A stretch of 64,000 bases of DNA, from positions 23,338 to 87,337 of the forward strand of contig CAZWKL010000002.1 in assembly GCA_964633875.1 (NCBI GenBank), read 5' to 3'. The translations under genes were made by a program, and so were the position numbers. This DNA is from an uncultured Pseudomonadales bacterium (GTDB lineage Bacteria > Patescibacteriota > Microgenomatia > UBA1400 > PJMF01). Shown here piece after piece: positions 5,134 through 40,353 of the stretch; the stretch's first letter is position 1, and each line of letters begins with the position of its first letter. The notes beneath the pieces are model-generated. The model worked only from the letters and a program-made list of their open reading frames with translations. It searched no databases and had not been told where the DNA came from.

Positions 5134-7599
5134 ATGAAAATTAAGCGGGAAAATATGGCGTCAACACAATCTTGGTACGATCACTTAGCAGTAGAACCCA
5201 AATGGCAAAAAGTTTGGGAAGAGTTGGCATTGTTTCAGCGGACCGAGGGAAAAGACCGTGCCGCCGCTGAACTGGACCCCTTGTACTTGCTGTTTGCTTT
5301 TGCCTATCCTTCCGGTTCGGGCCTGCATGTGGGGCATGTGGAAAGCAAAACCGCCCTGGATATTTTAGCTCGCTACTACCGCATGAACGGCAAAGATGTC
5401 TTTTTTCCGGTGGGCTGGGATGCTTTTGGCTTGCCGGCAGAGAATTACGCTATTAAAACCGGCATTCCTCCAGTAGAAACCACCAAGAGCGCCATTGACA
5501 CCTTTCGGGAGCAAATTAAAAGGCTGGCCATTTCCTACGACTGGGCCAACGAAATTGCCACCAATCACCCGGGCTATTATAAATGGACCCAGTGGCTTTT
5601 TCTGGAACTTTTCAAGCAGGGCCTAGCCTACCAAGATGTGGCCATGGTGAACTGGTGTCCGAGTTGCCAGACGGTGTTGGCTAACGAGCAGGTGGTCAAT
5701 GGCCTGTGTGAGCGCTGCGACTCCGAGGTGATTCAGAAAGAAATGAAACAGTGGTTTTTTAAGATTACTGAGTACAAGGATGAGTTGATTGAGGGTTTGA
5801 GTTCGGTGGACTGGCCGGAGGCCACTAAGCAGCAACAGCTTAACTGGATTGGGAAGAAGGAAGGGGCGGTGGTTGAGTTCCCGGTGGTTGGGACTGAGCT
5901 GGTAGTGGATTGCTTCACCACCAGGTTGGATACGATTTTCGGCGCGACTTTTTTGGTCATTTCCCCAGAGAAGTTTGGCAAGATGGAGTTGGATCAAGTA
6001 GTCAAAGCCCAATCGCCCGAGCAGGCCAACCCCGTTGCCGAGTACATCAAGAAGGCTTTCAAAAAAACCGAAGAAGAGCGCCAAGTCGGTGAAAAAGACA
6101 AATCTGGTGTCGATACCGGACTCAAAGCAATCAACCCGGTGAATCAGGAGGAAATTCCTATTTTTGTGGCGGACTATGTTTTGGGTGGCTATGGCACAGG
6201 CGCCATCATGGCGGTGCCGGCGCATGATGAGCGCGATTTTGCTTTTGCCCAGAAGTTTGAGCTGCCGGTTCGTGAGGTGATTGAACCGGCGGGCGAGGGT
6301 TATGGCAAGTTGGTTGAAAGCGGCGCATACACCGGTTTGGCCTCAGCAGCCGCCATGGAAAAAATAGCCGCAGACTTTGACTCTATTCATCCAGAAACCA
6401 CCTACCGCCTGCGCGATTGGCTGATTTCCCGCCAGCGTTACTGGGGCGCGCCGATTCCGATTGTTTATGATCCCGAGGGCCAGCCGCATCTGGTCAAGGA
6501 GGAACACCTGCCTTGGATCCTGCCCACCGACGTTGATTTCAAGCCCACCGGCGAGTCGCCGCTCAAGTCTTCTGCCGAGTTTATCCGCCGCACCGAAGAG
6601 CTGTACGGCCAAGGCTGGCAGCCGGAGTTCGACACCATGGACACTTTTGTGGACTCGAGTTGGTACTTTTTGCGCTACGTGGATTCCAGGAACGAAAACG
6701 AGCTGGCTGCCCGGGAGCAGCTGGAAAAATGGCTGCCGGTGGATTTTTACATGATTGGCTCGGAACACACCGTTTTGCACCTGTTGTATTCGCGGTTCTT
6801 GACCAAGTTTCTGCGGGATCAAGGTTATCTCAACTTTGACGAGCCTTTCCAAAGAATGAGGCACCAGGGGATGATCTTGGGTCCAGACGGCAAAAAAATG
6901 AGCAAGAGCAAAGGCAATGTCATTAATCCAGATGAAATTATTGAAAAATTTGGAGCAGATACCCTCAGGGTTTACGAGATGTTCATGGGGCCGCTTGAGT
7001 CGGATGCTCCCTGGGATGTCCGGGCGGTGATGGGGGTTTTCAAGTTCCTCCAGCGGGTGAACAGGTTGTGTTTGGGGGCGGCTGAAGCAAAGGCGGCCGG
7101 CAGCGAGGCAGCGGTTCGTAAGCTGCACCAGACTATCCGCAAGGTTGGCCATGACATTCCGGCTTTGAAGTTTAACACTGCTATTGCCGCCATGATGGAG
7201 TTTGTCAACGCCTGGGAAGAGGCGGTTAAAGGCGGTGGCGGTTTGAGCCAAGAGCAGAGGCTGATGTTTGTGCGGATTTTAGCGCCTTTCGCGCCGTTTA
7301 TGGCCGAAGAGCTTTATCATCAGCTGACTGGCGCAGAGGAGACAAATAGTGTTCATTTGCAACCTTGGCCGCAGTTTGATGCGGCACTGGCCCGTGAGGA
7401 AGCGGTAGAGATTGGAGTGCAAGTCAATGGCAAGCTCCGCGGTACTGTTGAGATTCCTGCAGACGAGCTGGAAAATGAACAATTGGTCTTGGAAAGGTCG
7501 GCGGCTTTGGAGCCGGTAGCCAAGTACCTCGAGGGCAAGAAGATCAAGCACCAGATTTATGTGCCGGGCAGGATTGTTAGTTTTGTGGTTGAAGGGTAG
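5134..7599 (+). CDS. leuS: Leucyl-tRNA synthetase
   Basis: Class I aaRS signatures: HVGHVESKTALDILARYYRMNGKDVFFPVGWDAFGLPAE (HIGH region) and KMSKSKGNV (KMSKS). 821 aa. The alternative start at 5155 (MASTQSWYDH...) is possible. Confidence 0.95.
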   Translation: MKIKRENMASTQSWYDHLAVEPKWQKVWEELALFQRTEGKDRAAAELDPLYLLFAFAYPSGSGLHVGHVESKTALDILARYYRMNGKDVFFPVGWDAFGLPAENYAIKTGIPPVETTKSAIDTFREQIKRLAISYDWANEIATNHPGYYKWTQWLFLELFKQGLAYQDVAMVNWCPSCQTVLANEQVVNGLCERCDSEVIQKEMKQWFFKITEYKDELIEGLSSVDWPEATKQQQLNWIGKKEGAVVEFPVVGTELVVDCFTTRLDTIFGATFLVISPEKFGKMELDQVVKAQSPEQANPVAEYIKKAFKKTEEERQVGEKDKSGVDTGLKAINPVNQEEIPIFVADYVLGGYGTGAIMAVPAHDERDFAFAQKFELPVREVIEPAGEGYGKLVESGAYTGLASAAAMEKIAADFDSIHPETTYRLRDWLISRQRYWGAPIPIVYDPEGQPHLVKEEHLPWILPTDVDFKPTGESPLKSSAEFIRRTEELYGQGWQPEFDTMDTFVDSSWYFLRYVDSRNENELAAREQLEKWLPVDFYMIGSEHTVLHLLYSRFLTKFLRDQGYLNFDEPFQRMRHQGMILGPDGKKMSKSKGNVINPDEIIEKFGADTLRVYEMFMGPLESDAPWDVRAVMGVFKFLQRVNRLCLGAAEAKAAGSEAAVRKLHQTIRKVGHDIPALKFNTAIAAMMEFVNAWEEAVKGGGGLSQEQRLMFVRILAPFAPFMAEELYHQLTGAEETNSVHLQPWPQFDAALAREEAVEIGVQVNGKLRGTVEIPADELENEQLVLERSAALEPVAKYLEGKKIKHQIYVPGRIVSFVVEG

Positions 7600-7620
7600 T
7601 TTTATCATCATTAACGCTAA

Positions 7621-7692
7621 TTGCGCCAACAAACCAACGCAATTCACGCCATTTCCGTCGGTCGACCAACGCAATTCACGCTATTTGCGTTG
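7621..7692. repeat. Two direct copies of CCAACGCAATTCACGC (7634..7649 and 7666..7681, period 32) plus an inverted partner TTGCGTTG (7684..7692) and AATTGCG (7618..7624), forming a candidate operator array
   Basis: Seen directly in the sequence ttaacgctaattgcgccaacaaaccaacgcaattcacgccatttccgtcggtcgaccaacgcaattcacgctatttgcgttgattcag. It lies 100-170 nt upstream of the AbiEi-like gene start. Confidence 0.4.
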
Positions 7693-7791
7693 ATTCAGTG
7701 CCATTTTCAACAATTTCAAGGTTGTCCAAAAAGCATAATTAATATAAAATTTGAACTACAAGTATGTCTGAAGCCTACCTACAGTTCAAAT

Positions 7792-8373
7792 ATGCAAAAT
7801 AAAATCCTCATTGAGCTTCATAAACAGCCACAAACAGTTTTTACTCTCACAGAAATTTCTTTGTTATTCCCAGGCATATCCTACACAAATATCAAAGACA
7901 GGATGTCTTATCTTACTCGTCGGGGAGCAATTGCCAGACTGAGGAAAGGCGTGTACGCCAAGGAAAATTACAACTCCCAAGAATTAGCCAACAAGCTTTA
8001 TACGCCTTCATATATTAGTTTAGAAACGGTGCTCCAACAGGCAGGGGTGATTTTTCAATACTACGAGCAGATTACTTCAGTTTCCTATCTTTCAAGAACG
8101 GTGCAGGTTTCTGGACATATACTCGACTACAAAAAGATTAAAGAAGAGGTGCTTACCAACAGAGCAGGGATTGTGACAAAAAATAATGTAAATATAGCCA
8201 CGCCGGAGCGGGCTTTTCTGGATGCAATCTATTTGTACAGTAATTACCATGTTGATAATCTAAGCTCTCTTAACTGGAAAAAAATTAATGAATTTATGGG
8301 CTTGTATGTCAACAAGTCCTTAAATCGTCGGGTGGCCGATTACTATCAGATTTATCAGGAAAATAATGCTTGA
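7792..8373 (+). CDS. AbiEi-family (type IV TA antitoxin-like) winged-HTH protein, orphan
   Basis: MQNKILIELHKQPQTVFTLTEISLLFPGISYTNIKDRMSYLTRRGAIARLRKGVYAKEN then YTPSYISLETVLQQAGVIFQY. This matches the AbiEi N-terminal wHTH pattern (..RGxY.. and SYISLESAL). No adjacent AbiEii NTase. The region is AT-rich. Confidence 0.6.
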   Translation: MQNKILIELHKQPQTVFTLTEISLLFPGISYTNIKDRMSYLTRRGAIARLRKGVYAKENYNSQELANKLYTPSYISLETVLQQAGVIFQYYEQITSVSYLSRTVQVSGHILDYKKIKEEVLTNRAGIVTKNNVNIATPERAFLDAIYLYSNYHVDNLSSLNWKKINEFMGLYVNKSLNRRVADYYQIYQENNA

Positions 8374-8429
8374 TAATTTTTGAGCAATTTTCTACAGTTA
8401 AAGCAAGGTTTTCCCTATAAAGTGGGGTC

Positions 8430-9059
8430 ATGTTCGAAAAAACGACCCTTCATCAAATTATTTTTCAGAGGTTGAGAACCAATCGGGTGAAGATTTTGGC
8501 GCTGGTGATTTTTTTGGCGGGCAGTGGAGTGTCCGGCTTTGGTTTGGCTGCGCTGGGGGAGACTGGCGCCGCCGGGTATGAGTTGCAGCCGGTGATCACC
8601 GAATGCACTCAGACAGTTGGCGCCGGCAGCTTGAAAGTGGATGCCGGCGGCGCCATCAAAAACCCCGGCCTTTACACTCTCGATGAAGGCTCCCGGATTG
8701 GCGACGTCATCAAGGCAGCGGGAGGTTTACACCCGGATGCCGATGGCGGTTACATTGCCAGTCAGCTCAACGCCGCCAAGCCGGTCAAAGACGGAGACAA
8801 AATCTACATTCCTTATTTCCAAGAACAGCAGTCGGCGGCGGAAGCAGAGGCCTCATCAGACCAACCGCCGGGCAACAGCAAGCTTATTTCCATCAATCAA
8901 GCCACCGAGAAACAGCTGATGGAGTTACCGCAGATCGGCGCCAAACGGGCTGCGGATATTGTGGCTGGCCGTCCTTATCAATCAATCGAAGAGTTGGTGG
9001 AAATGAGCGTGCTCACTCAAGGTATTTTTGATGGGATTGAAGAGCTGATTAGTCTCTAA
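8430..9059 (+). CDS. comEA: Competence protein ComEA (TM anchor, SLBB domain and helix-hairpin-helix DNA-binding domain)
   Basis: N-terminal TM. GAIKNPGLYTLDEGSRIGDVIKAAGG (SLBB domain). C-terminal INQATEKQLMELPQIGAKRAADIVAGRPYQSIEEL (tandem HhH). Confidence 0.8.
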   Translation: MFEKTTLHQIIFQRLRTNRVKILALVIFLAGSGVSGFGLAALGETGAAGYELQPVITECTQTVGAGSLKVDAGGAIKNPGLYTLDEGSRIGDVIKAAGGLHPDADGGYIASQLNAAKPVKDGDKIYIPYFQEQQSAAEAEASSDQPPGNSKLISINQATEKQLMELPQIGAKRAADIVAGRPYQSIEELVEMSVLTQGIFDGIEELISL

Positions 9060-12325: not shown

Positions 12326-14188
12326 ATGAAATTTATCAACAACAACTCACAAAATCCCATTAAGCAAGAATTGGAAACACTTATTTGGCAGTCGCTCCAA
12401 GCGCTCAAGCTGCCGCAGCCGGAGCAAATTAACCTGGAGCGACCCGCCAATATTGCGCACGGCGATTACGCCACCAGCGTGGCCATGGAGTTGTTTAGCC
12501 AATCACAAACTAGCAATGAAACAGAATCTTACTCAAGTCCGCGCAATCTGGCGGAGGCTATCGCGGCGGCAATAAACCGCCAACTCGACAGCCAAACCAA
12601 CCCGGCCATCGCCAGCGTGACTGTGGCAGGACCAGGATTCATCAACTTTAAATTGTCTGAGGCTTTTATTGCCGCCAAAATAGGCGAGTTGGCTCAAGAC
12701 CCACGCCCAGCCAAGATGACGCCGGAAAGCCAGCAAAAAATCGTGGTTGAGTATTCTTCGCCCAACATCGCTAAACCGTTTGCGGTTGGTCATTTACGCT
12801 CGACCATTATTGGTGACGCGGTGGCTAATTTGTTGGAGGCGGCCGGTCACACTGTTTACCGCGATAACCACTTGGGTGACTGGGGGACACAGTTTGGCAA
12901 GCAGATTTACGCCATCAAGGCTTGGGGAGACGAAGAGCAGATTGACCGGGCAGAGAATCCGCTCAAAGAGCTAGTGAGTTTGTACGTTAAGTTTCACCAG
13001 GAGGCGGAAGCCGATCCGGAGTTGGAGGAGGCGGCGCGCGCTTGGTTTAAAAAGCTGGAGGATGGCGATCCGGAAGCGCGCCGCCTTTGGCAAAAATGCA
13101 TCCACTGGTCTTGGCAGGAGTTTGAAAAAATCTACCGGCTGCTTAACGTCAGTTTCACCGAAAACGATGGCCGCGGTTACGGCGAGTCATTTTTCGAAGA
13201 CAAAATGGACGTGGTCATTGCCGAGCTCAAAGCCAAAAACCTGCTGCAAGCCAGTGAAGGGGCAGAGTTGGTCTTTTTCCCCAACGATGAGCTGCCACCC
13301 CTTATGATTCTCAAAAAAGACGGTTCTACCCTCTACGCCACCCGCGACCTAGCCGCCGACAAATTCCGGCTGGAGCACTACGGCCACGATATCACCGTGA
13401 TTAATGAAACCGGCTCTGAACAAAGTCTGTATTTCCGGCAGATTTTCAAAACTGAAGAGCTGCTTGGCTGGTACCAGCCCGGTCAGCGGGTGCATATTGG
13501 CCACGGTATGATTCGCTTCAAAGAGGGCAAAATGTCTACCCGCAAGGGCAATGTTGTTTGGCTCAAAGACGTTTTGGATGAAGCCTACCGGCGAGTAAAC
13601 GCCATTTCCAGCCAGGAGTTGACGGAGGAAACCAAGTGGAAAATCGCTGTTGGCGCTTTGAAATGGAACGATCTCAAGCGCAGCCCTCATCTCAATCTGG
13701 TTTTTGATTGGGATGAGATTGTCAACGTCAAGGGCAACTCCGGTCCTTATCTGCAGTATACCCACGTGCGTTGCGGCAGCATTTTTGCCAAAGCCGCGGA
13801 AAAATGGCAGACCGATGCTGTTAGTATAGAAAGTTATATTACTAAACAGATTGATATCTTGCTTAACCTTTTGATACAGCAAAAAATCACTTTATCACCG
13901 ACTGAGAAAGAGCTATTACGAAACCTTAGCTCATATTACGAAACCTTAGAGCATAGTATGATTGAGTACAGCCCCCATCACTTGGCTAATTATCTCTACG
14001 AGCTGGCTCGCACCTTTAATACTTTCTACAGTGATCATCACGTTGTCAACGAAGCCGCTGATGCTTTGGCGGATTTGGCTGAAACCACCCCGGCCGCGCA
14101 CTTGCGCTTGCTGCTAACTCTGGCTACGGCGCGGGTGATTGCTGCTGGTTTGGATATTTTGGGGATTGAAACCGTGGACAGGATGTAG
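12326..14188 (+). CDS. argS: Arginyl-tRNA synthetase
   Basis: 620 aa. SSPNIAKPFAVGHLRSTIIGDA (HIGH-like region). Class I catalytic core and a C-terminal DALR-type anticodon-binding region. The GKMSTRKG stretch is consistent with ArgS, which lacks a canonical KMSKS. Confidence 0.93.
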   Translation: MKFINNNSQNPIKQELETLIWQSLQALKLPQPEQINLERPANIAHGDYATSVAMELFSQSQTSNETESYSSPRNLAEAIAAAINRQLDSQTNPAIASVTVAGPGFINFKLSEAFIAAKIGELAQDPRPAKMTPESQQKIVVEYSSPNIAKPFAVGHLRSTIIGDAVANLLEAAGHTVYRDNHLGDWGTQFGKQIYAIKAWGDEEQIDRAENPLKELVSLYVKFHQEAEADPELEEAARAWFKKLEDGDPEARRLWQKCIHWSWQEFEKIYRLLNVSFTENDGRGYGESFFEDKMDVVIAELKAKNLLQASEGAELVFFPNDELPPLMILKKDGSTLYATRDLAADKFRLEHYGHDITVINETGSEQSLYFRQIFKTEELLGWYQPGQRVHIGHGMIRFKEGKMSTRKGNVVWLKDVLDEAYRRVNAISSQELTEETKWKIAVGALKWNDLKRSPHLNLVFDWDEIVNVKGNSGPYLQYTHVRCGSIFAKAAEKWQTDAVSIESYITKQIDILLNLLIQQKITLSPTEKELLRNLSSYYETLEHSMIEYSPHHLANYLYELARTFNTFYSDHHVVNEAADALADLAETTPAAHLRLLLTLATARVIAAGLDILGIETVDRM

Positions 14189-36819: not shown

Positions 36820-37118
36820 GCAAACAAAGAAAAGACCCATTCGCTAATTTAATTTTAGACCAAGAAGAGCAATTACTGGAAGAAGCTCTTGAAAGAGGAG
36901 AATACGAAGAGGATCCTCAATTTGAAGAAACTAAAAAAATGCTTGAAGAAGCTGCCGCTCGTTATTTGGAGCTGAACACTACCAAGCCTATCACTATTAG
37001 AATTAAGCAACTGGACTTGATTCGGATTAAAGCTAAAGCAGCAGCCAAAAATATGCCCTATCAAACCTTGATCAGCTCTCTAATTCATCAATATGCTAAG
37101 AGCCAGTCTACTCGCTAA
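36816..37118 (+). CDS. brnA: BrnA-family antitoxin
   Basis: ITIRIKQLDLIRIKAKAAAKNMPYQTLISSLIHQYA. ATGA overlap with brnT. Confidence 0.7.
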   Translation: MSKQRKDPFANLILDQEEQLLEEALERGEYEEDPQFEETKKMLEEAAARYLELNTTKPITIRIKQLDLIRIKAKAAAKNMPYQTLISSLIHQYAKSQSTR

Positions 37119-39459
37119 TCCCGAGCAAATTTTCTGGCGCCTTAATCACCACAGGAATATCTCTAAACTCCTCAGGTTCGTGACCGCGTGAGAAAGTAAC
37201 ATTGCGGTTGCAGTGCGGATTATCAGCGTGATGCGCTTGATTGATGGCAGCTAAGCTCAGTCCACCGCTTGCTTGTGCAAATTCACGCACCCAGTTTTCG
37301 AGCGCTTGGCCCAAACCCATCCGGTGAACCATCTCCTGAAAAGCTTCATCAGCCGCGTCGGAAAAATTTCCCGGCGCACCATCCGGTTTTAGCGGTACGT
37401 GTTTCAGATGTGGTCTTTGGCGGGCAGGATAAGTCCCTTCAGAGTCTGCAGATTTCAACCAGTCAACCTCAGGTATTTCTCCTGTGCAAGAATTGGCAAA
37501 AAGTTCCAGCGCGATTTTTTCAAAAACAATTTTTATATCCGGAGGAAGTCCAGCTGTTTCCTCAAGGAAAACAACGTTGGCAATGGTAGCAGGAAAGGTC
37601 AGATGGAGTTTGATTTGTGGCTGTTCCAGATCAGGAAATGTATCTGGCCGGTTGACTAAATTAAAAGTAATCAAAAAACCTCCCTGCTGATGATAACGCA
37701 GCTGGGCGGAAGCAATTAATCCGGGTATTTGCGGGTGATCATCCAAATAATACAGATCTCCCGCTTCGGTCAGGCCTTGTTTAAATGACCGCACTATTAA
37801 TCGTCGCAATTGAGCATTCTCTTTGAGTAGATCAAGACCTCGGTTTCTAATTTCTTCCGGCAGCGAATAATCAATCAGTGCCTCCAGCGGTGTTTTTGGC
37901 TGAAAATCCCTATTGGTAAGATAGAGCAGCACTCCCGGATAGTCTTGGATAGTAAACAAAAGCTCTGTACTTTCCATCAGCTCTCTGCGTTTAAAGTTCA
38001 TTTTCTCGTCTTGTGTCAACAGGTTTTCGGCAAAACGAGCCACTTCTTGAGGAGAATTGAGAATGCCTACTTGTTCATCTACGATGAGGTAGCCACTCAA
38101 TCCTCTGATGGCAAAGGAGTGAATGTGCCAGCGGCGGCCGGTAGCTTCTTCCTTTTCTACTTTTTCGCGATTAACTGTTTTGCGGATCATGTCAACAAAG
38201 ACGCCGGAACGCACCAGTTTTCTAAGCGGTTTCAATTCTTCAGGAAATTCCAGGCTGTATTTGTAAGGAAATTCACCAACAATGCTCCAATCTATAGGCG
38301 CCATGAACAGAGTCGATGCGGGGGTTTCAGCACTTTGCTGCAGCCGCCCTTCACCGTCAGGCGTTTTAGCCAGATGCTTGCCTTTTTGGTAATTAAAAAT
38401 GTTTTGCAATCTTTCTGAATATGAACCTGATCCAATTGCCACTCTCATCAGTGCGGGCGGGACTGGCTGTTTACTTTGTTTTCTGATCTGGTTCGCGCTG
38501 AGATTATGGCTTTCTTGAATTTCTGAATTATTCGCTTGTGCCTGCAAGTTATGTTTAAGCAAAGCCAGTATTTCTGGTACTTTTTCTGGTCCAGTGGCCA
38601 ACTCGGGATAAGCTTTAATAATTGAAGCAATAAAGGAAAGTTGCAGTAGATAAGGATCGTAGGCGCGGTTGTTTTTGTTAAATTGCTCCTGTTTGCTGGT
38701 GATCTCAGCCATTAAACTCAAAGCCATATTGGTGTAGGTAGCTATAACATACAGGTCTTCCATTTTTGGGTGAGCGGTATAAGTACCGAGGAACAAGCTT
38801 AGCCAGGGCAGAGAACCAACTGGCGCAACTTTGTTATACTTACCAGTGGAAAGATCAACCGCTGCTTCCGCAAGCGACAAATCATCAAGATTCTCAGCAG
38901 CCAAATAGACAAGTTTTTCAACAGTGACCAAAGCTCTGTGCCAATATTGCTGATCTTGGTCGTTAAAGCGTTTGTCTATCAGGCCGTTTAAGATCAATTC
39001 AGAGGTTTCTTTAAGATTTTTGCCAATTTTATCTGCGGAAAAATGATCAAGTTTGTTGAGAGCTCGCAAAAATGTTTCCAACTCACGCTCATCCCACACA
39101 TGATCGGAGAGTTGTTTCCAGTCATAACCGCGTAGTTGTTTGTTGAGATTTTTTAAAAATGCACTCAGAACTTTGAGTTGCTCAGAGTTGTCCGAGTTTT
39201 TGGCAATAAAAGCGGCATTTTCCACGGCCGAGATGAATTGAAGCAACGCGGCTGGGGAGGATGTGATGCGCTCAATTATTTCTTTGCTGGCGCTATCAAT
39301 ATCTTGAAAAGATTCTGGTAGTCTTGGCAATGGGGTTTCAGTCTCATCAGGGACTGGTTGTTCCGGTGAATCACTAATTGGTTGTTGCTCGGCCGCATTG
39401 CCCAGAGAGGGAAGGGCAGTTGATTGTTCAGACGGATCAGTTTCAATTGAGTTGATCAT
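37108..39459 (-). CDS. Large cytoplasmic protein of unknown function (783 aa), co-oriented directly downstream of the nucleotidyltransferase gene
   Basis: No signal peptide or TM. No motif I can assign. Contains RRWHIH (an Rx4H, HEPN-like spacing) and a His-rich C-terminal segment HHADNPHCNRNVTFSRGHE. 66-nt gap to the upstream NTase gene. Confidence 0.8.
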   Translation of the reverse strand: MINSIETDPSEQSTALPSLGNAAEQQPISDSPEQPVPDETETPLPRLPESFQDIDSASKEIIERITSSPAALLQFISAVENAAFIAKNSDNSEQLKVLSAFLKNLNKQLRGYDWKQLSDHVWDERELETFLRALNKLDHFSADKIGKNLKETSELILNGLIDKRFNDQDQQYWHRALVTVEKLVYLAAENLDDLSLAEAAVDLSTGKYNKVAPVGSLPWLSLFLGTYTAHPKMEDLYVIATYTNMALSLMAEITSKQEQFNKNNRAYDPYLLQLSFIASIIKAYPELATGPEKVPEILALLKHNLQAQANNSEIQESHNLSANQIRKQSKQPVPPALMRVAIGSGSYSERLQNIFNYQKGKHLAKTPDGEGRLQQSAETPASTLFMAPIDWSIVGEFPYKYSLEFPEELKPLRKLVRSGVFVDMIRKTVNREKVEKEEATGRRWHIHSFAIRGLSGYLIVDEQVGILNSPQEVARFAENLLTQDEKMNFKRRELMESTELLFTIQDYPGVLLYLTNRDFQPKTPLEALIDYSLPEEIRNRGLDLLKENAQLRRLIVRSFKQGLTEAGDLYYLDDHPQIPGLIASAQLRYHQQGGFLITFNLVNRPDTFPDLEQPQIKLHLTFPATIANVVFLEETAGLPPDIKIVFEKIALELFANSCTGEIPEVDWLKSADSEGTYPARQRPHLKHVPLKPDGAPGNFSDAADEAFQEMVHRMGLGQALENWVREFAQASGGLSLAAINQAHHADNPHCNRNVTFSRGHEPEEFRDIPVVIKAPENLLGISE

Positions 39460-39525: not shown

Positions 39526-40353
39526 TCACCGAAAAAGCCTGATCAGTCCATACAAAAACCCGCCGCTGGCAGAGATTCTGCCGTTCAATTTGTAATCAAG
39601 CAGCCAATACAACTGCAGCAGCCGGACCACGTAAGGATGGGTTTTGCTCATGCTGCTAATCATCTCGATGACTTGCTTCCTCGACTCGTCACTCATCAAT
39701 TCCTCAGGATGTTCCTGGAGAAAGGCAAAAAACTCTGCCAGTTTTTTCCTATCTTTAGGTTTTTCACAACCGTTGCGCAAAAAATAGCGCCAGTAAGTCC
39801 ACTCGCCGGAAAAAGTTGGCACCCGGCAGCCGCCGTAATCGCGCCAGTAAATCTCAAAAATATCTGCCGGTACCTCCTGAATCACGCTCCTGAACAAAAG
39901 ATAGTACATTTGGTCATCTTTGATAATTTGTGAAAAAAACTGAAACAGCGATCCCAACTTTTTTTCAAAAAGAATCGGATCGAGGGTGACTTCGGGGAAA
40001 TTTTTCTTATTTTTGGCGGCTTTGGTAATTGCCGCGGCGGCTGCGTTAATAGTTTTTTCGTTTGGGCCGAGAGCGATAAAATCCAAGTCCGGTATTGAGC
40101 CGTTGTCGCGGCGGGCATAAAGTGGTTGGCCTTGGATAGCCTTGAGCGCGTGGCCGCCCACCAGCACCGCTGCCACGCCGTGTTGGTTGAGAATGTCCAG
40201 GACTGTGTGCAAATGCTCGGCGTATTCTTGTTCTTCCGGAGTGGGTTTTTCCGGCTGGCGATGGTCGGCTTCTGTGGTCTCAGGAGGCGCAATGGCCTCG
40301 ACAACCTCAGCGATCTTGACAGGGTGGGTAAGTTCAACAGTCATTTGCCCCAC
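39526..40353 (-). CDS. Pol-beta superfamily nucleotidyltransferase (AbiEii/ANT(2'')-like minimal NTase)
   Basis: LDILNQHGVAAVLVGGHALKAIQGQPLYARRDNGSIPDLDFIALGP, i.e. GG-x-A-L ... S-x-P-D-L-D-F. This is the GS/GG...[DE]x[DE] NTase signature in AbiEii-like spacing. The N-terminal ~45 aa are acidic and Pro-rich. Confidence 0.6.
   Translation of the reverse strand: MGQMTVELTHPVKIAEVVEAIAPPETTEADHRQPEKPTPEEQEYAEHLHTVLDILNQHGVAAVLVGGHALKAIQGQPLYARRDNGSIPDLDFIALGPNEKTINAAAAAITKAAKNKKNFPEVTLDPILFEKKLGSLFQFFSQIIKDDQMYYLLFRSVIQEVPADIFEIYWRDYGGCRVPTFSGEWTYWRYFLRNGCEKPKDRKKLAEFFAFLQEHPEELMSDESRKQVIEMISSMSKTHPYVVRLLQLYWLLDYKLNGRISASGGFLYGLIRLFR

What the first reader, a model, noticed from the sequence alone, without database searches (positions are those of the whole stretch)
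7621..8373. Orphan AbiEi-like wHTH gene preceded by an array of direct and inverted repeats
The 193-aa protein has the AbiEi N-terminal signature (RGAIARLRKGVYA and YISLETVL). No AbiEii nucleotidyltransferase gene is adjacent. Upstream there are two direct copies of CCAACGCAATTCACGC 32 bp apart, plus inverted copies (TTGCGTTG and AATTGCG). This fits an autoregulatory operator for a wHTH dimer. The only AbiEii-like NTase in the window lies 31 kb away (39526..40353) next to a large unknown protein. The locus is AT-rich relative to its neighbours.
Basis: partly seen in the sequence, partly recalled or inferred. Interest (0 to 1): 0.5.

Follow-up and report, generated by a model that had tools for sequence, protein, structure and literature searches.

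The report
Toxin-less AbiEi antitoxin gene remnant

Summary
Window 7792..8373 (+) encodes a 193-aa AbiEi-family protein (PADLOC AbiEi E=2e-66; fold match to S. agalactiae AbiEi 6Y8Q). It has no toxin gene next to it, sits in a low-GC patch, and is preceded by an exact 17-nt direct repeat at 32-bp spacing.

- None of about 85 homologous loci carries them.
- They do not resemble the family's operator.
- A sister genome keeps the tract although the abiEi promoter and most of the gene are gone there.

The likely operator is a 33-bp palindrome (7754-7786, AACT-N25-AGTT) directly after the -10 box. It is conserved in position and sequence across the family, and it is the only such paired site in the 64-kb window.

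abiEi lies in an 830-bp interval between leuS and comEA, which are 30-200 nt apart in relatives. Of 75 scorable homologous loci, 68 have AbiEii overlapping the AbiEi stop. Here only a stump remains (MLDNF*, 8366-8383). The sister genome has a longer stump ending at the same right-hand junction, so the toxin was lost before the two lineages split.

The "AbiEii-like NTase" at 39526..40353 has a nucleotidyltransferase fold but shows no detectable relation to AbiEii.

Verdict: a new member of a known kind, of low interest.

The parts
5134..7599 (+). leuS (leucyl-tRNA synthetase), the core gene on the left of the interval
   Evidence: 821-aa ORF. Pfam tRNA-synt_1 and Anticodon_1 are on record for the identical contig. 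The leuS-comEA-comEC order is conserved in relatives.
7602..7697 (+). Repeat tract downstream of leuS: three 32-bp units (U1 7602-7633, U2 7634-7665, U3 7666-7697), with exact 17-mers at 7633-7649 and 7665-7681.
   Evidence: U1 includes a 23-nt stretch absent from the sister genome. The tract is not found in any AbiEi-homolog locus. RNA folding of the tract is not significant (z = -0.4).
7650..7695 (+). Conserved non-coding block: the tail of U2 plus U3. It contains the palindrome GGTCGACC and the hairpin CAACGCAA-N10-TTGCGTTG (7667-7692). It is a candidate leuS terminator or a protein-binding site. Homology with the sister genome ends at 7695/7696.
   Evidence: 98% identical to sister locus L301, against 46-88% in the adjacent leuS 3' end. 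The hairpin is predicted in both genomes (z = -1.3 and -2.1). The terminator scan does not call it. Relatives L089, L090 and L104 have GC-rich hairpins followed by T runs (canonical-looking terminators, read by eye) at the equivalent place.
7722..7750 (+). Promoter-like site of abiEi: TTGTCC, 17 nt, TAAAAT
   Evidence: Consensus scan. The same TTGACA-17-TATAAT layout sits at the same distance from the ATG in homologs.
7754..7786 (.). Probable AbiEi operator: a 33-bp palindrome AACTACAAGTATGTCT-g-AAGCCTACCTACAGTT. The half-sites are 7754-7769 (+) and 7771-7786 (-). Symmetry extends outward to 7749-7791 (ATTTG/CAAAT).
   Evidence: Inverted repeat I2. Every AACT..AGTT pair with >=8 of 14 arm matches spans exactly 33 bp and ends 2-9 nt before the ATG. 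At least 11 of 16 pairs form in 54% of 81 loci, against 6% of shuffles. A half-site matrix built without the window ranks these two arms first in 7560-7800 (6.9 and 9.0 bits). It is the only strong paired site in 64 kb (16.0, next best 7.4). The right arm matches the operator arm of homolog locus L291 at 15 of 16 positions.
7792..8373 (+). abiEi: 193-aa AbiEi-family antitoxin and transcriptional repressor (N-terminal wHTH plus C-terminal domain), intact
   Evidence: PADLOC AbiEi PDLC02255 E=2.2e-66 over residues 3-183. Pfam AbiEi_4 23.5 bits, cutoff 25. NCBIfam TAA_AbiEi 40 bits, cutoff 150. AlphaFold2 pLDDT 89. Foldseek top hits 6Y8Q chains A and D, E=8e-6, TM 0.50-0.56. 1280 homologs, mostly 193 aa. 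It keeps 62 of 66 columns that are >=90% conserved.
8366..8383 (+). Stump of the deleted toxin gene abiEii: ATG CTT GAT AAT TTT TGA (MLDNF*), in the usual -8 overlap with the abiEi stop
   Evidence: Homologs start AbiEii at the same place with MLD/MLN.... The sister genome has MLDSAKHKVFR* at the same position, followed by the same right-hand junction sequence. There is no AbiEii HMM hit anywhere in the window.
8388..8429 (+). Native comEA upstream element (CTACAGTTAAAGCAAGG..., containing a -10-like TACAGT). It marks the right edge of the inserted DNA.
   Evidence: 98% identical to the sister genome. The same motif lies directly after the leuS stop in L091 and L092, and to the right of a different insert in L089. 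Promoter-like match TTGATA-17-TACAGT at 8370-8398.
8430..9059 (+). comEA, the core gene on the right of the interval
   Evidence: Pfam SLBB and HHH_3. Synteny with comEC.

Best explanation
The locus is the toxin-less remnant of an AbiE (AbiEi/AbiEii) toxin-antitoxin / abortive-infection cassette. The cassette once inserted between the core genes leuS and comEA.

Shown:
- The protein is an intact AbiEi-family two-domain wHTH protein.
- Its relatives are almost always followed by an overlapping abiEii. Here only the first 3-5 codons of abiEii remain.
- A sister genome has the same deletion junction, so the toxin was lost before the two lineages split.
- A promoter-like site is followed at once by a 33-bp palindrome that is conserved across the family.

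- Two AbiEi monomers bind the two half-sites at 7754-7769 and 7771-7786. These cover the transcription start, so binding represses the gene's own promoter.
- With no toxin to neutralise, the gene is either a slowly decaying relic or is kept for a side benefit. Examples are neutralising related incoming AbiEii toxins, or an AbiEii encoded elsewhere in the genome.

The upstream 32-bp direct repeats are not part of this circuit. They belong to a tract downstream of leuS whose 3' part (7650-7695) is conserved independently of abiEi. That part is possibly the leuS terminator hairpin. The exact duplication is a lineage-specific slippage product.
For: Identity of the protein.

Orphan status and the ancestral partner:
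- AbiEii is intact directly downstream in 68 of 75 scorable species-level loci.
- No AbiEii signal appears in six frames of the window.
- The stump ATGCTTGATAA matches abiEii starts in homologs.
- The sister genome keeps the abiEi 3' relic, a longer abiEii stump and the same junction.
- Parallel decays occur in L288 (14-codon stump), L017 (internal deletion) and L036 (frameshift).

Insertion:
- leuS and comEA are 30-200 nt apart in 13 relatives, against 830 nt here.
- GC drops over the interval.
- The cassette sits next to ParA, HTH_17 and DUF2958 genes (a mobile-element-like neighbourhood, my reading) in L291.

Operator. Published precedent: AbiEi binds two 23-bp inverted repeats 3 bp apart, and Rv2827c binds inverted-repeat pairs overlapping its promoter (PMC7319586). 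abiEi/abiEii are bicistronic with an overlap and are negatively autoregulated (PMC3985639).

Repeats unrelated to AbiEi.
Against: - No binding, transcription or toxicity data exist for this protein. The operator assignment is comparative only.
- The window's palindrome is imperfect: 10 of 16 core pairs, with a degenerate left arm. Repression may therefore be weakened.
- The palindrome could also act as a 5'-UTR RNA hairpin (z = -2.5).
- Pfam AbiEi_4 is just below its gathering score, and NCBIfam is far below its cutoff.
- Only 64 kb of the genome was searched, so an AbiEii elsewhere cannot be excluded.
- The mismatches between U2 and U3 all fall in the last 15 of 32 positions (post-hoc p about 0.006). 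The 7650-7695 block is 98% conserved. Both suggest the tract does something, and what it does is unknown.
- Rv2827c shows that AbiEi-type proteins can use extra upstream sites out to -131.
Confidence: 0.75

Rival explanations
1. One reading: the two or three direct copies of CCAACGCAATTCACGC, with the nearby inverted copies, are the autoregulatory operator bound by AbiEi.
For: The repeats are real and non-random. They lie 40-120 bp upstream of the -35 box. Rv2827c uses a second pair of sites as far as -131 (PMC7319586). Mismatches between units cluster outside the 17-nt core.
Against: They are absent upstream of about 85 homologous loci. Their scores on the family half-site matrix are negative, -1 to -11 bits. 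They have no similarity to the window's own palindrome arms. They are retained in the sister genome, which lacks the abiEi promoter and gene. In that genome the upstream unit has 4-5 changes in the core (read), so the exact duplication is lineage-specific.
Confidence: 0.05
2. The orphan AbiEi is kept by selection as a trans-acting antitoxin. It would neutralise an AbiEii encoded elsewhere in the genome, or on incoming mobile elements (an anti-addiction or immunity role).
For: - The toxin deletion predates the split from the sister lineage, which is about 18-23% diverged in nucleotides.
- Despite that, the ORF is intact, has only 4 deviations at 66 conserved columns, and keeps the family-invariant residues G85, F88, Q89 and Y91 in a loop with lower model confidence.
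- In S. agalactiae AbiEi, a flexible loop at residues 85-87 is essential for antitoxicity (bioRxiv 10.64898/2026.01.19.700257). That the two loops correspond is my inference, not an alignment.
- About 9% of family loci lack an intact toxin.
- Orphan antitoxins have been proposed as anti-addiction factors (PMC10790755).
Against: The sister lineage destroyed the gene, so it is dispensable there. No AbiEii lies in the 64-kb window. No polymorphism data allow a dN/dS test: the only variant seen is one non-synonymous change. The argument for constraint rests on rough assumptions about neutral rates.
Confidence: 0.2
3. AbiEi has been domesticated as a regulator of the downstream competence genes. 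Transcription from the abiEi promoter would read into comEA-comEC, placing DNA uptake under AbiEi control.
For: No terminator-like site lies between the abiEi stop and comEA, which are 56 nt apart. Both genes are on the same strand. The ORF has been retained for a long time.
Against: comEA keeps its own upstream element, which is conserved in relatives that never had the insert. That element scores -1.4 on the half-site matrix, and no second paired operator exists in the window. The sister genome does without abiEi.
Confidence: 0.06
4. The conserved tract downstream of leuS (7650-7695) is a recombination or attachment site at which accessory cargo is swapped. The repeats would then be recombinase-binding sites.
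For: Homology between the window and the sister genome breaks exactly at the 3' end of the conserved block, 7695/7696. Three different cargos occupy this junction: abiE here, a DUF4143 fragment in the sister, and two unknown genes in L089. The copy number of the units differs between genomes, and an NCBI scaffold has a 100-N gap inside the tract.
Against: No integrase or transposase gene lies nearby. L089 and the other relatives lack the tract. A hot spot between two conserved core genes is equally explained by homologous recombination in the flanks.
Confidence: 0.1

Closest known systems
AbiEi/AbiEii (AbiE) abortive-infection toxin-antitoxin system of Streptococcus agalactiae and Lactococcus lactis (COG5340 antitoxin with DUF1814/COG2253 nucleotidyltransferase toxin; classed as type IV, and recently proposed as type VII)
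   Same: The protein has the same two-domain AbiEi architecture and fold (6Y8Q is the top and only significant PDB match). Its relatives are bicistronic, with abiEii overlapping the abiEi stop by 4-14 nt (PMC3985639). An inverted repeat overlaps the promoter and transcription start, as in the abiE promoter of S. agalactiae (PMC7319586).
   Different: There is no toxin gene here, only a 5-codon stump. Sequence identity to S. agalactiae AbiEi is only 14-17%. The operator geometry differs: two 16-nt half-sites separated by 1 nt (33 bp in all), against two 23-bp repeats separated by 3 bp. No function has been tested.
Rv2827c-Rv2826c (MenA3-MenT3) of Mycobacterium tuberculosis
   Same: It is an AbiEi-type wHTH antitoxin that autoregulates through inverted repeats overlapping the promoter (PMC7319586).
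   Different: Rv2827c is larger and uses four repeats in two pairs out to -131. In the window only one pair matches the family motif, and the upstream repeats are unrelated in sequence. The A2 profile (27 family members including the window protein) finds no PDB sequence at E<=1.
Orphan (solitary) antitoxins left by toxin-antitoxin decay
   Same: The antitoxin gene is retained with its own promoter after the toxin was deleted. The same loss recurs in the family, with 7 of 75 loci lacking an intact toxin. Orphan antitoxins are reported as abundant and are proposed as anti-addiction factors or regulators (PMC10790755).
   Different: Here the loss can be dated relative to a lineage split, because the two genomes share a deletion junction. 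The two lineages then diverged: the gene is intact in one and destroyed in the other.

Membership tests
AbiEi antitoxin family (COG5340; Pfam AbiEi_4 PF13338; PADLOC AbiEi) | Sequence-profile match to AbiEi models | tested here: met
   PADLOC PDLC02255 E=2.2e-66 over residues 3-183 of 193, with 20 further AbiEi models matching. Pfam AbiEi_4 gives E=5.9e-5 and 23.5 bits, just under the 25-bit cutoff. NCBIfam TAA_AbiEi (an equivalog model) gives 40 bits against a cutoff of 150, so the protein is not that equivalog.
AbiEi antitoxin family | [quoted passage not shown] | tested here: met
   AlphaFold2 model with pLDDT 89.2 and pTM 0.81. In the Foldseek PDB search, 6Y8Q chains A and D are the only hits at E<=1e-3, aligned over about 204 columns with TM 0.50-0.56.
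AbiEi antitoxin family | Inverted repeats overlapping its own promoter (the autoregulatory operator) | tested here: met
   A 33-bp palindrome at 7754-7786 starts 4 nt after the -10 box. Its position and sequence are conserved in the family. Actual binding is not testable here.
AbiE toxin-antitoxin / abortive-infection system (a functional two-gene module) | Adjacent downstream abiEii (DUF1814, PF08843) nucleotidyltransferase toxin gene in one operon | tested here: not met
   Only 56 nt separate the stop from comEA, and only an MLDNF* stump remains. A cognate AbiEii HMM finds nothing in six frames of the 64-kb window at E<=1. By contrast, 68 of 75 homologous loci have the gene.
AbiE toxin-antitoxin / abortive-infection system | Antitoxin neutralises the toxin; the module gives phage resistance or plasmid stabilisation | not testable with these tools
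   This needs co-expression and phage assays.
   There is no Pfam hit at E<=0.01 and only noise at E<=10. There is no PADLOC hit. None of 28 family members hits AbiEii. hhalign against the cognate AbiEii profile gives probability 0.2%. The fold is nucleotidyltransferase-like, closest to ANT(2'')-Ia and LnuA (E about 1e-4), with MenT1 at 1.5e-3 and Rv1045 at 6.7e-3.
   The repeats are absent from all homolog loci. They are present in the sister genome without the abiEi promoter or gene.
Intrinsic (rho-independent) terminator (for the hairpin at 7667-7692) | GC-rich stem-loop followed directly by a U tract, at the 3' end of a gene | tested here: inconclusive
   The stem is 8 bp (4 G-C pairs) with a 10-nt loop, 68 nt after the leuS stop. 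The structure is predicted in both genomes. It is not called by the terminator scan, the U tract is weak, and the z-scores are only -1.3 and -2.1.

The most novel reading that the evidence does not exclude
The orphan AbiEi may not be junk. It has stayed intact since before the split from a sister lineage that is about 20% diverged in nucleotides. It could therefore be maintained as a stand-alone immunity factor against AbiEii toxins carried by invading mobile elements, or as a regulator. Separately, the conserved tract downstream of leuS (7650-7695) may mark a fixed site at which different cargo genes are exchanged between leuS and comEA in this lineage.
Probability: 0.2. Interest if true: 0.4.

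Novelty: new member of a known kind. Interest (0 to 1): 0.2.

Why it matters
The practical value is mainly corrective.
- Defence-system annotation should not count this locus as an AbiE system.
- The repeats that catch the eye are not the operator.
- The comparison yields a usable consensus operator for a large AbiEi subfamily, mostly from Patescibacteria: AACTnnAGGTnACAAT-n-ATTGTnACCTnnAGTT, 33 bp, directly after the -10 box.
- About 9% of family loci have lost the toxin while keeping the antitoxin. This locus is a dated example of that decay.
- If the retained antitoxin proves to be under selection, it would be a convenient natural case for testing the anti-addiction idea for AbiE-type systems.

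Tried and rejected
- Rfam and tRNA scans found only six tRNAs elsewhere and nothing in 7600-8430.
- Tandem Repeats Finder gave no array at 7400-8000.
- RNA folding of the repeat tract was not significant (z = -0.4), so a structured RNA was rejected.
- Searching the 14-mer AACGCAATTCACGC in viral contigs gave 120 single chance matches with no extended similarity. This was uninformative.
- blastn and tblastx of 7590-7760 against all homolog loci found nothing meaningful. The idea that the tract is a relic of a donor gene or of a cassette end shared with other abiE cassettes was rejected.
- A PDB sequence search with the family profile gave no hit. Fold comparison was needed instead.
- The near-identical contig L001 and the identical contigs L296 and L297 gave no useful variation.
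- A possible AbiEi half-site upstream of comEA (CTACAGTT at 8392-8399) scores -1.4 on the matrix. It is a native comEA element present in relatives without abiE, so the idea was rejected.
- The sister genome's 191-aa gene at the same junction was checked as a possible diverged AbiEi. It is unrelated (BLASTP E=17). The collection's precomputed Pfam hits record PF13635 DUF4143 for it, and I read it as a gene fragment.
- The organism's name could not be obtained; the cluster look-up returned no names.
Full report
**What is at the coordinates**

The ORF listed as 7621..8373 is a mechanical extension from a TTG. The gene starts at ATG 7792 and encodes 193 aa. Upstream is leuS (5134..7599). Downstream, after only 56 nt, come comEA (8430..9059) and comEC.

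- CCAACGCAATTCACGC occurs exactly at 7634-7649 and 7666-7681, extending to a 17-mer.
- A third, degenerate copy lies one 32-bp period upstream (7610-7625).
- The inverted pair CAACGCAA/TTGCGTTG lies at 7667-74 and 7685-92.
- It is the longest short-range exact direct repeat in the 64-kb window, and block-shuffles never exceeded 12 nt.

GC falls to 0.36-0.41 across 7600-8500, against 0.52-0.61 in the flanking genes.

**Identity of the protein**

- PADLOC's AbiEi model PDLC02255 matches end to end at E=2.2e-66, and twenty other AbiEi models also hit.
- Pfam AbiEi_4 covers the N-terminal wHTH at 23.5 bits, just under the 25-bit cutoff.
- The NCBIfam equivalog model is far below its cutoff.
- An AlphaFold2 model built on 27 family members is confident (pLDDT 89).
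- In the PDB its only significant matches are the two chains of S. agalactiae AbiEi, 6Y8Q. These align over the full length at E=8e-6 and TM 0.50-0.56.

Membership of the AbiEi family is therefore supported by both sequence and fold. The family is large: 1280 hits, most of them 193-194 aa. Most of the few named sources are Patescibacteria.

**Orphan status**

I fetched 80 species-representative loci plus several metagenomic ones. I then built an HMM from the downstream ORFs that match PF08843-annotated AbiEii.

Of the 75 loci with enough downstream sequence:
- 68 have an intact AbiEii whose start overlaps the AbiEi stop, typically by 8, 11 or 4 nt.
- 3 have degraded copies.
- 4 have none.

The same HMM, run on all six frames of the whole window, finds nothing at E<=1.

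At the usual -8 position the window reads ATG CTT GAT AAT TTT TGA (MLDNF*, 8366-8383). Homologs begin AbiEii there with MLDQTKHR, MLDKNRHK and the like. The closest homolog outside this species (P0003, 62% identity) is also an orphan, with a 14-codon stump MLDQMKHRVVLIVC*. Toxin loss with antitoxin retention is thus recurrent in this family.

**The distant 'AbiEii-like NTase'**

The 275-aa protein at 39526..40353 has a VGG...DLD motif.
- It has no Pfam or PADLOC hit.
- It belongs to a small family of 57 representatives, and none of the 28 members tested matches AbiEii.
- hhalign against the cognate AbiEii profile gives a probability of 0.2%.
- Its predicted structure (pLDDT 88) is a nucleotidyltransferase fold. 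It is closest to ANT(2'')-Ia, LnuA and TM1012 (E about 1e-4). The toxins MenT1 and Rv1045 match more weakly, at 1.5e-3 and 6.7e-3.
- In a sister genome it is a syntenic chromosomal gene with no AbiEi nearby.

It is a nucleotidyltransferase, but nothing identifies it as the missing partner.

**The operator**

Aligning the upstream regions at the ATG shows a common architecture. TTGACA-17-TATAAT is followed at once by a long palindrome.

- Every AACT...AGTT pair with at least 8 of 14 matching arm positions spans exactly 33 bp and ends 2-9 nt before the ATG. At >=9 of 14 there are 18 such loci, against 0.6 expected from shuffles.
- With a fixed 33-bp frame, 54% of 81 loci have >=11 of 16 complementary pairs, against 6% of shuffles. 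For >=13 pairs the figures are 22% against 0.08%.
- The consensus is AACTnnAGGTnACAAT-n-ATTGTnACCTnnAGTT.

The window has this element at 7754-7786, starting 4 nt after the -10-like TAAAAT (7745-7750). Symmetry extends outward to 7749-7791.

- A half-site matrix built without the window ranks its two arms first and second in 7560-7800, at 9.0 and 6.9 bits. The three direct-repeat units score -1 to -11.
- As a paired site it is unique in the window, scoring 16.0 against 7.4 for the next best.
- Its right arm matches the operator arm of the 60%-identical homolog in L291 at 15 of 16 positions.

This fits published AbiEi behaviour. Two monomers bind inverted repeats that overlap the promoter, giving negative autoregulation. 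S. agalactiae uses two 23-bp repeats 3 bp apart, and Rv2827c uses two pairs (PMC7319586; PMC3985639). Binding here is inferred, not shown. The window's core palindrome is imperfect (10 of 16 pairs). An RNA-hairpin role is not excluded (z = -2.5).

**The direct repeats**

They are not a family feature. No homolog locus carries the motif. Only 3 of 75 other loci have any exact upstream direct repeat of >=14 nt, and those sequences are unrelated.

The decisive comparison is a sister genome: GCA_964515115.1 (locus L300) and the Logan contigs L301 and L302. Its ComEA is 83% identical, and nucleotide identity is 77-82% across leuS and comEA-comEC. At the same junction it has, in order:
1. the leuS stop;
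2. the repeat tract, with two units and without a 23-nt stretch of U1;
3. a 191-aa gene with a precomputed Pfam DUF4143 hit, which I read as a fragment, in place of the abiEi promoter and most of abiEi;
4. about 50 nt of the abiEi 3' end (…EYYQIYKENNA*);
5. a longer abiEii stump (MLDSAKHKVFR*);
6. the same junction sequence leading into the native comEA upstream region.

Homology breaks at window 7695/7696 and resumes at 8338. Two conclusions follow.

First, the abiEii deletion is shared, so it is older than the split. The window lineage kept abiEi intact afterwards, and the sister lineage destroyed it.

Second, the repeat tract persists without the abiEi promoter or gene. In 50-nt windows, 7650-7695 is 98% identical between the genomes. 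The leuS 3' end is 46-88% identical and the dead abiEi relic is 86%. This block holds the tail of U2 plus U3, with the palindrome GGTCGACC and the CAACGCAA-N10-TTGCGTTG hairpin. It looks constrained for a reason unrelated to AbiEi.

The exact 17-mer duplication is specific to the window lineage, because the sister's upstream unit reads CATCGCAATTAGCTCC. Relatives L089, L090 and L104 carry canonical-looking terminator hairpins (read by eye) immediately after leuS. A leuS terminator is therefore the simplest guess for U3, but the evidence is weak. The scan does not call it, and the z-scores are -1.3 and -2.1. I commit to 'a conserved element downstream of leuS plus slippage duplicates', and I flag its function as unresolved.

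**Insertion context**

In thirteen relatives, leuS is followed by comEA after about 30-200 nt. The window has 830 nt there.

The native comEA upstream motif (CTACAGTT.A.GCAAGG) lies in three settings:
- directly after the leuS stop in L091 and L092;
- to the right of a different two-gene insert in L089;
- to the right of abiEi in the window, at 8392 onward.

The right edge of the foreign DNA is therefore at about 8384-8390. Intact relatives of the cassette sit in mobile-element-like neighbourhoods, for example next to ParA, HTH_17, DUF2958 and a DNA methyltransferase in L291.

**Is the orphan still useful?**

The protein keeps 62 of 66 columns that are >=90% conserved in the family. The median homolog misses 1, and 17% of homologs miss >=4. 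It also keeps the invariant G85, F88, Q89 and Y91 in a flexible loop. In S. agalactiae AbiEi a loop at residues 85-87 is needed for antitoxicity, although I did not align the two loops.

An intact ORF after roughly 10% lineage divergence hints at purifying selection. This rests on rough assumptions, and the sister lineage lost the gene. No strain variation is available to test it.

**Verdict**

This is a known kind of gene (AbiEi) in a known kind of state (an orphan antitoxin left by toxin-antitoxin decay). Interest is low.

Noticed in passing
L300:3008-4000, L301:2796-3633 (sister genome, same leuS-comEA junction): The sister genome carries a 191-aa gene with a precomputed Pfam DUF4143 hit where the window has the abiEi promoter and gene; I read it as a fragment. 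It is followed by a relic of the abiEi 3' end and a longer abiEii stump. The NCBI scaffold has a 100-N gap inside the repeat tract, flanked by duplicated units, so the array may be longer or variable there.
   Followed up: partly
L089:4228-5914: A more distant relative has a different insert at the same leuS-comEA junction: two unknown genes of 239 aa and 261 aa. The junction looks like a hot spot for accessory DNA.
   Followed up: partly
L042, L053:3986-7559, L058: In three loci (L053 and L058 are titled Candidatus Saccharibacteria; L042 only 'bacterium'), the AbiEi homolog (198 aa) is followed by a large ORF of about 1000 aa instead of AbiEii. In L053, the only one run against Pfam, the ORF overlaps abiEi and is an SNF2-family helicase (SNF2-rel_dom, Helicase_C). 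The upstream region is nearly identical across the three. This may be a different partner for an AbiEi-type regulator.
   Followed up: partly
L288:3575-3620; L017; L036; L293: The toxin has decayed independently in several loci. L288 has a 14-codon abiEii stump, L017 an internal deletion that keeps only the ends, L036 a frameshift, and L293 an N-terminally truncated abiEii.
   Followed up: yes
window 37108-39459 (-) and 39526-40353 (-): A nucleotidyltransferase-fold protein from a small family with no Pfam match (57 representatives) lies next to a 783-aa protein that also has no Pfam match. The 783-aa protein has weak PADLOC hits to PDC-M07B (E=8e-4) and ZorC (E=2e-3). In the sister genome the two genes are separated by three inserted genes.
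   Followed up: partly
window 7779-7786 and 8392-8399: The 8-mer CTACAGTT occurs in the right arm of the abiEi operator and again in the native comEA upstream element. The two copies flank the abiEi ORF as a direct repeat. The second copy is native, being present in relatives without abiE, so this is probably coincidence.
   Followed up: partly
window 13914-13949: An exact 16-nt direct repeat, TATTACGAAACCTTAG, with 20-nt spacing. It is the second-longest short-range repeat in the window.
   Followed up: no
L002:3870-7345: In a Curtissbacteria genome the abiE cassette lies between two ORFs that both hit the YceG domain (333 aa and 112 aa). The insertion may have split or duplicated the 3' end of yceG.
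   Followed up: no
L081, L016, L085 (upstream of their abiEi genes): Three homolog loci have their own, unrelated tandem repeats upstream of the promoter. An example is L081, with TCCACGCCGCGAACGCCGCGAGAA at a 29-nt period.
   Followed up: no
window 6647-6847 and 7347-7447 compared with L001: Against the otherwise near-identical strain contig L001, mismatches cluster in two short leuS segments (91-92% identity against about 100% elsewhere). This suggests small recombination tracts within leuS.
   Followed up: no
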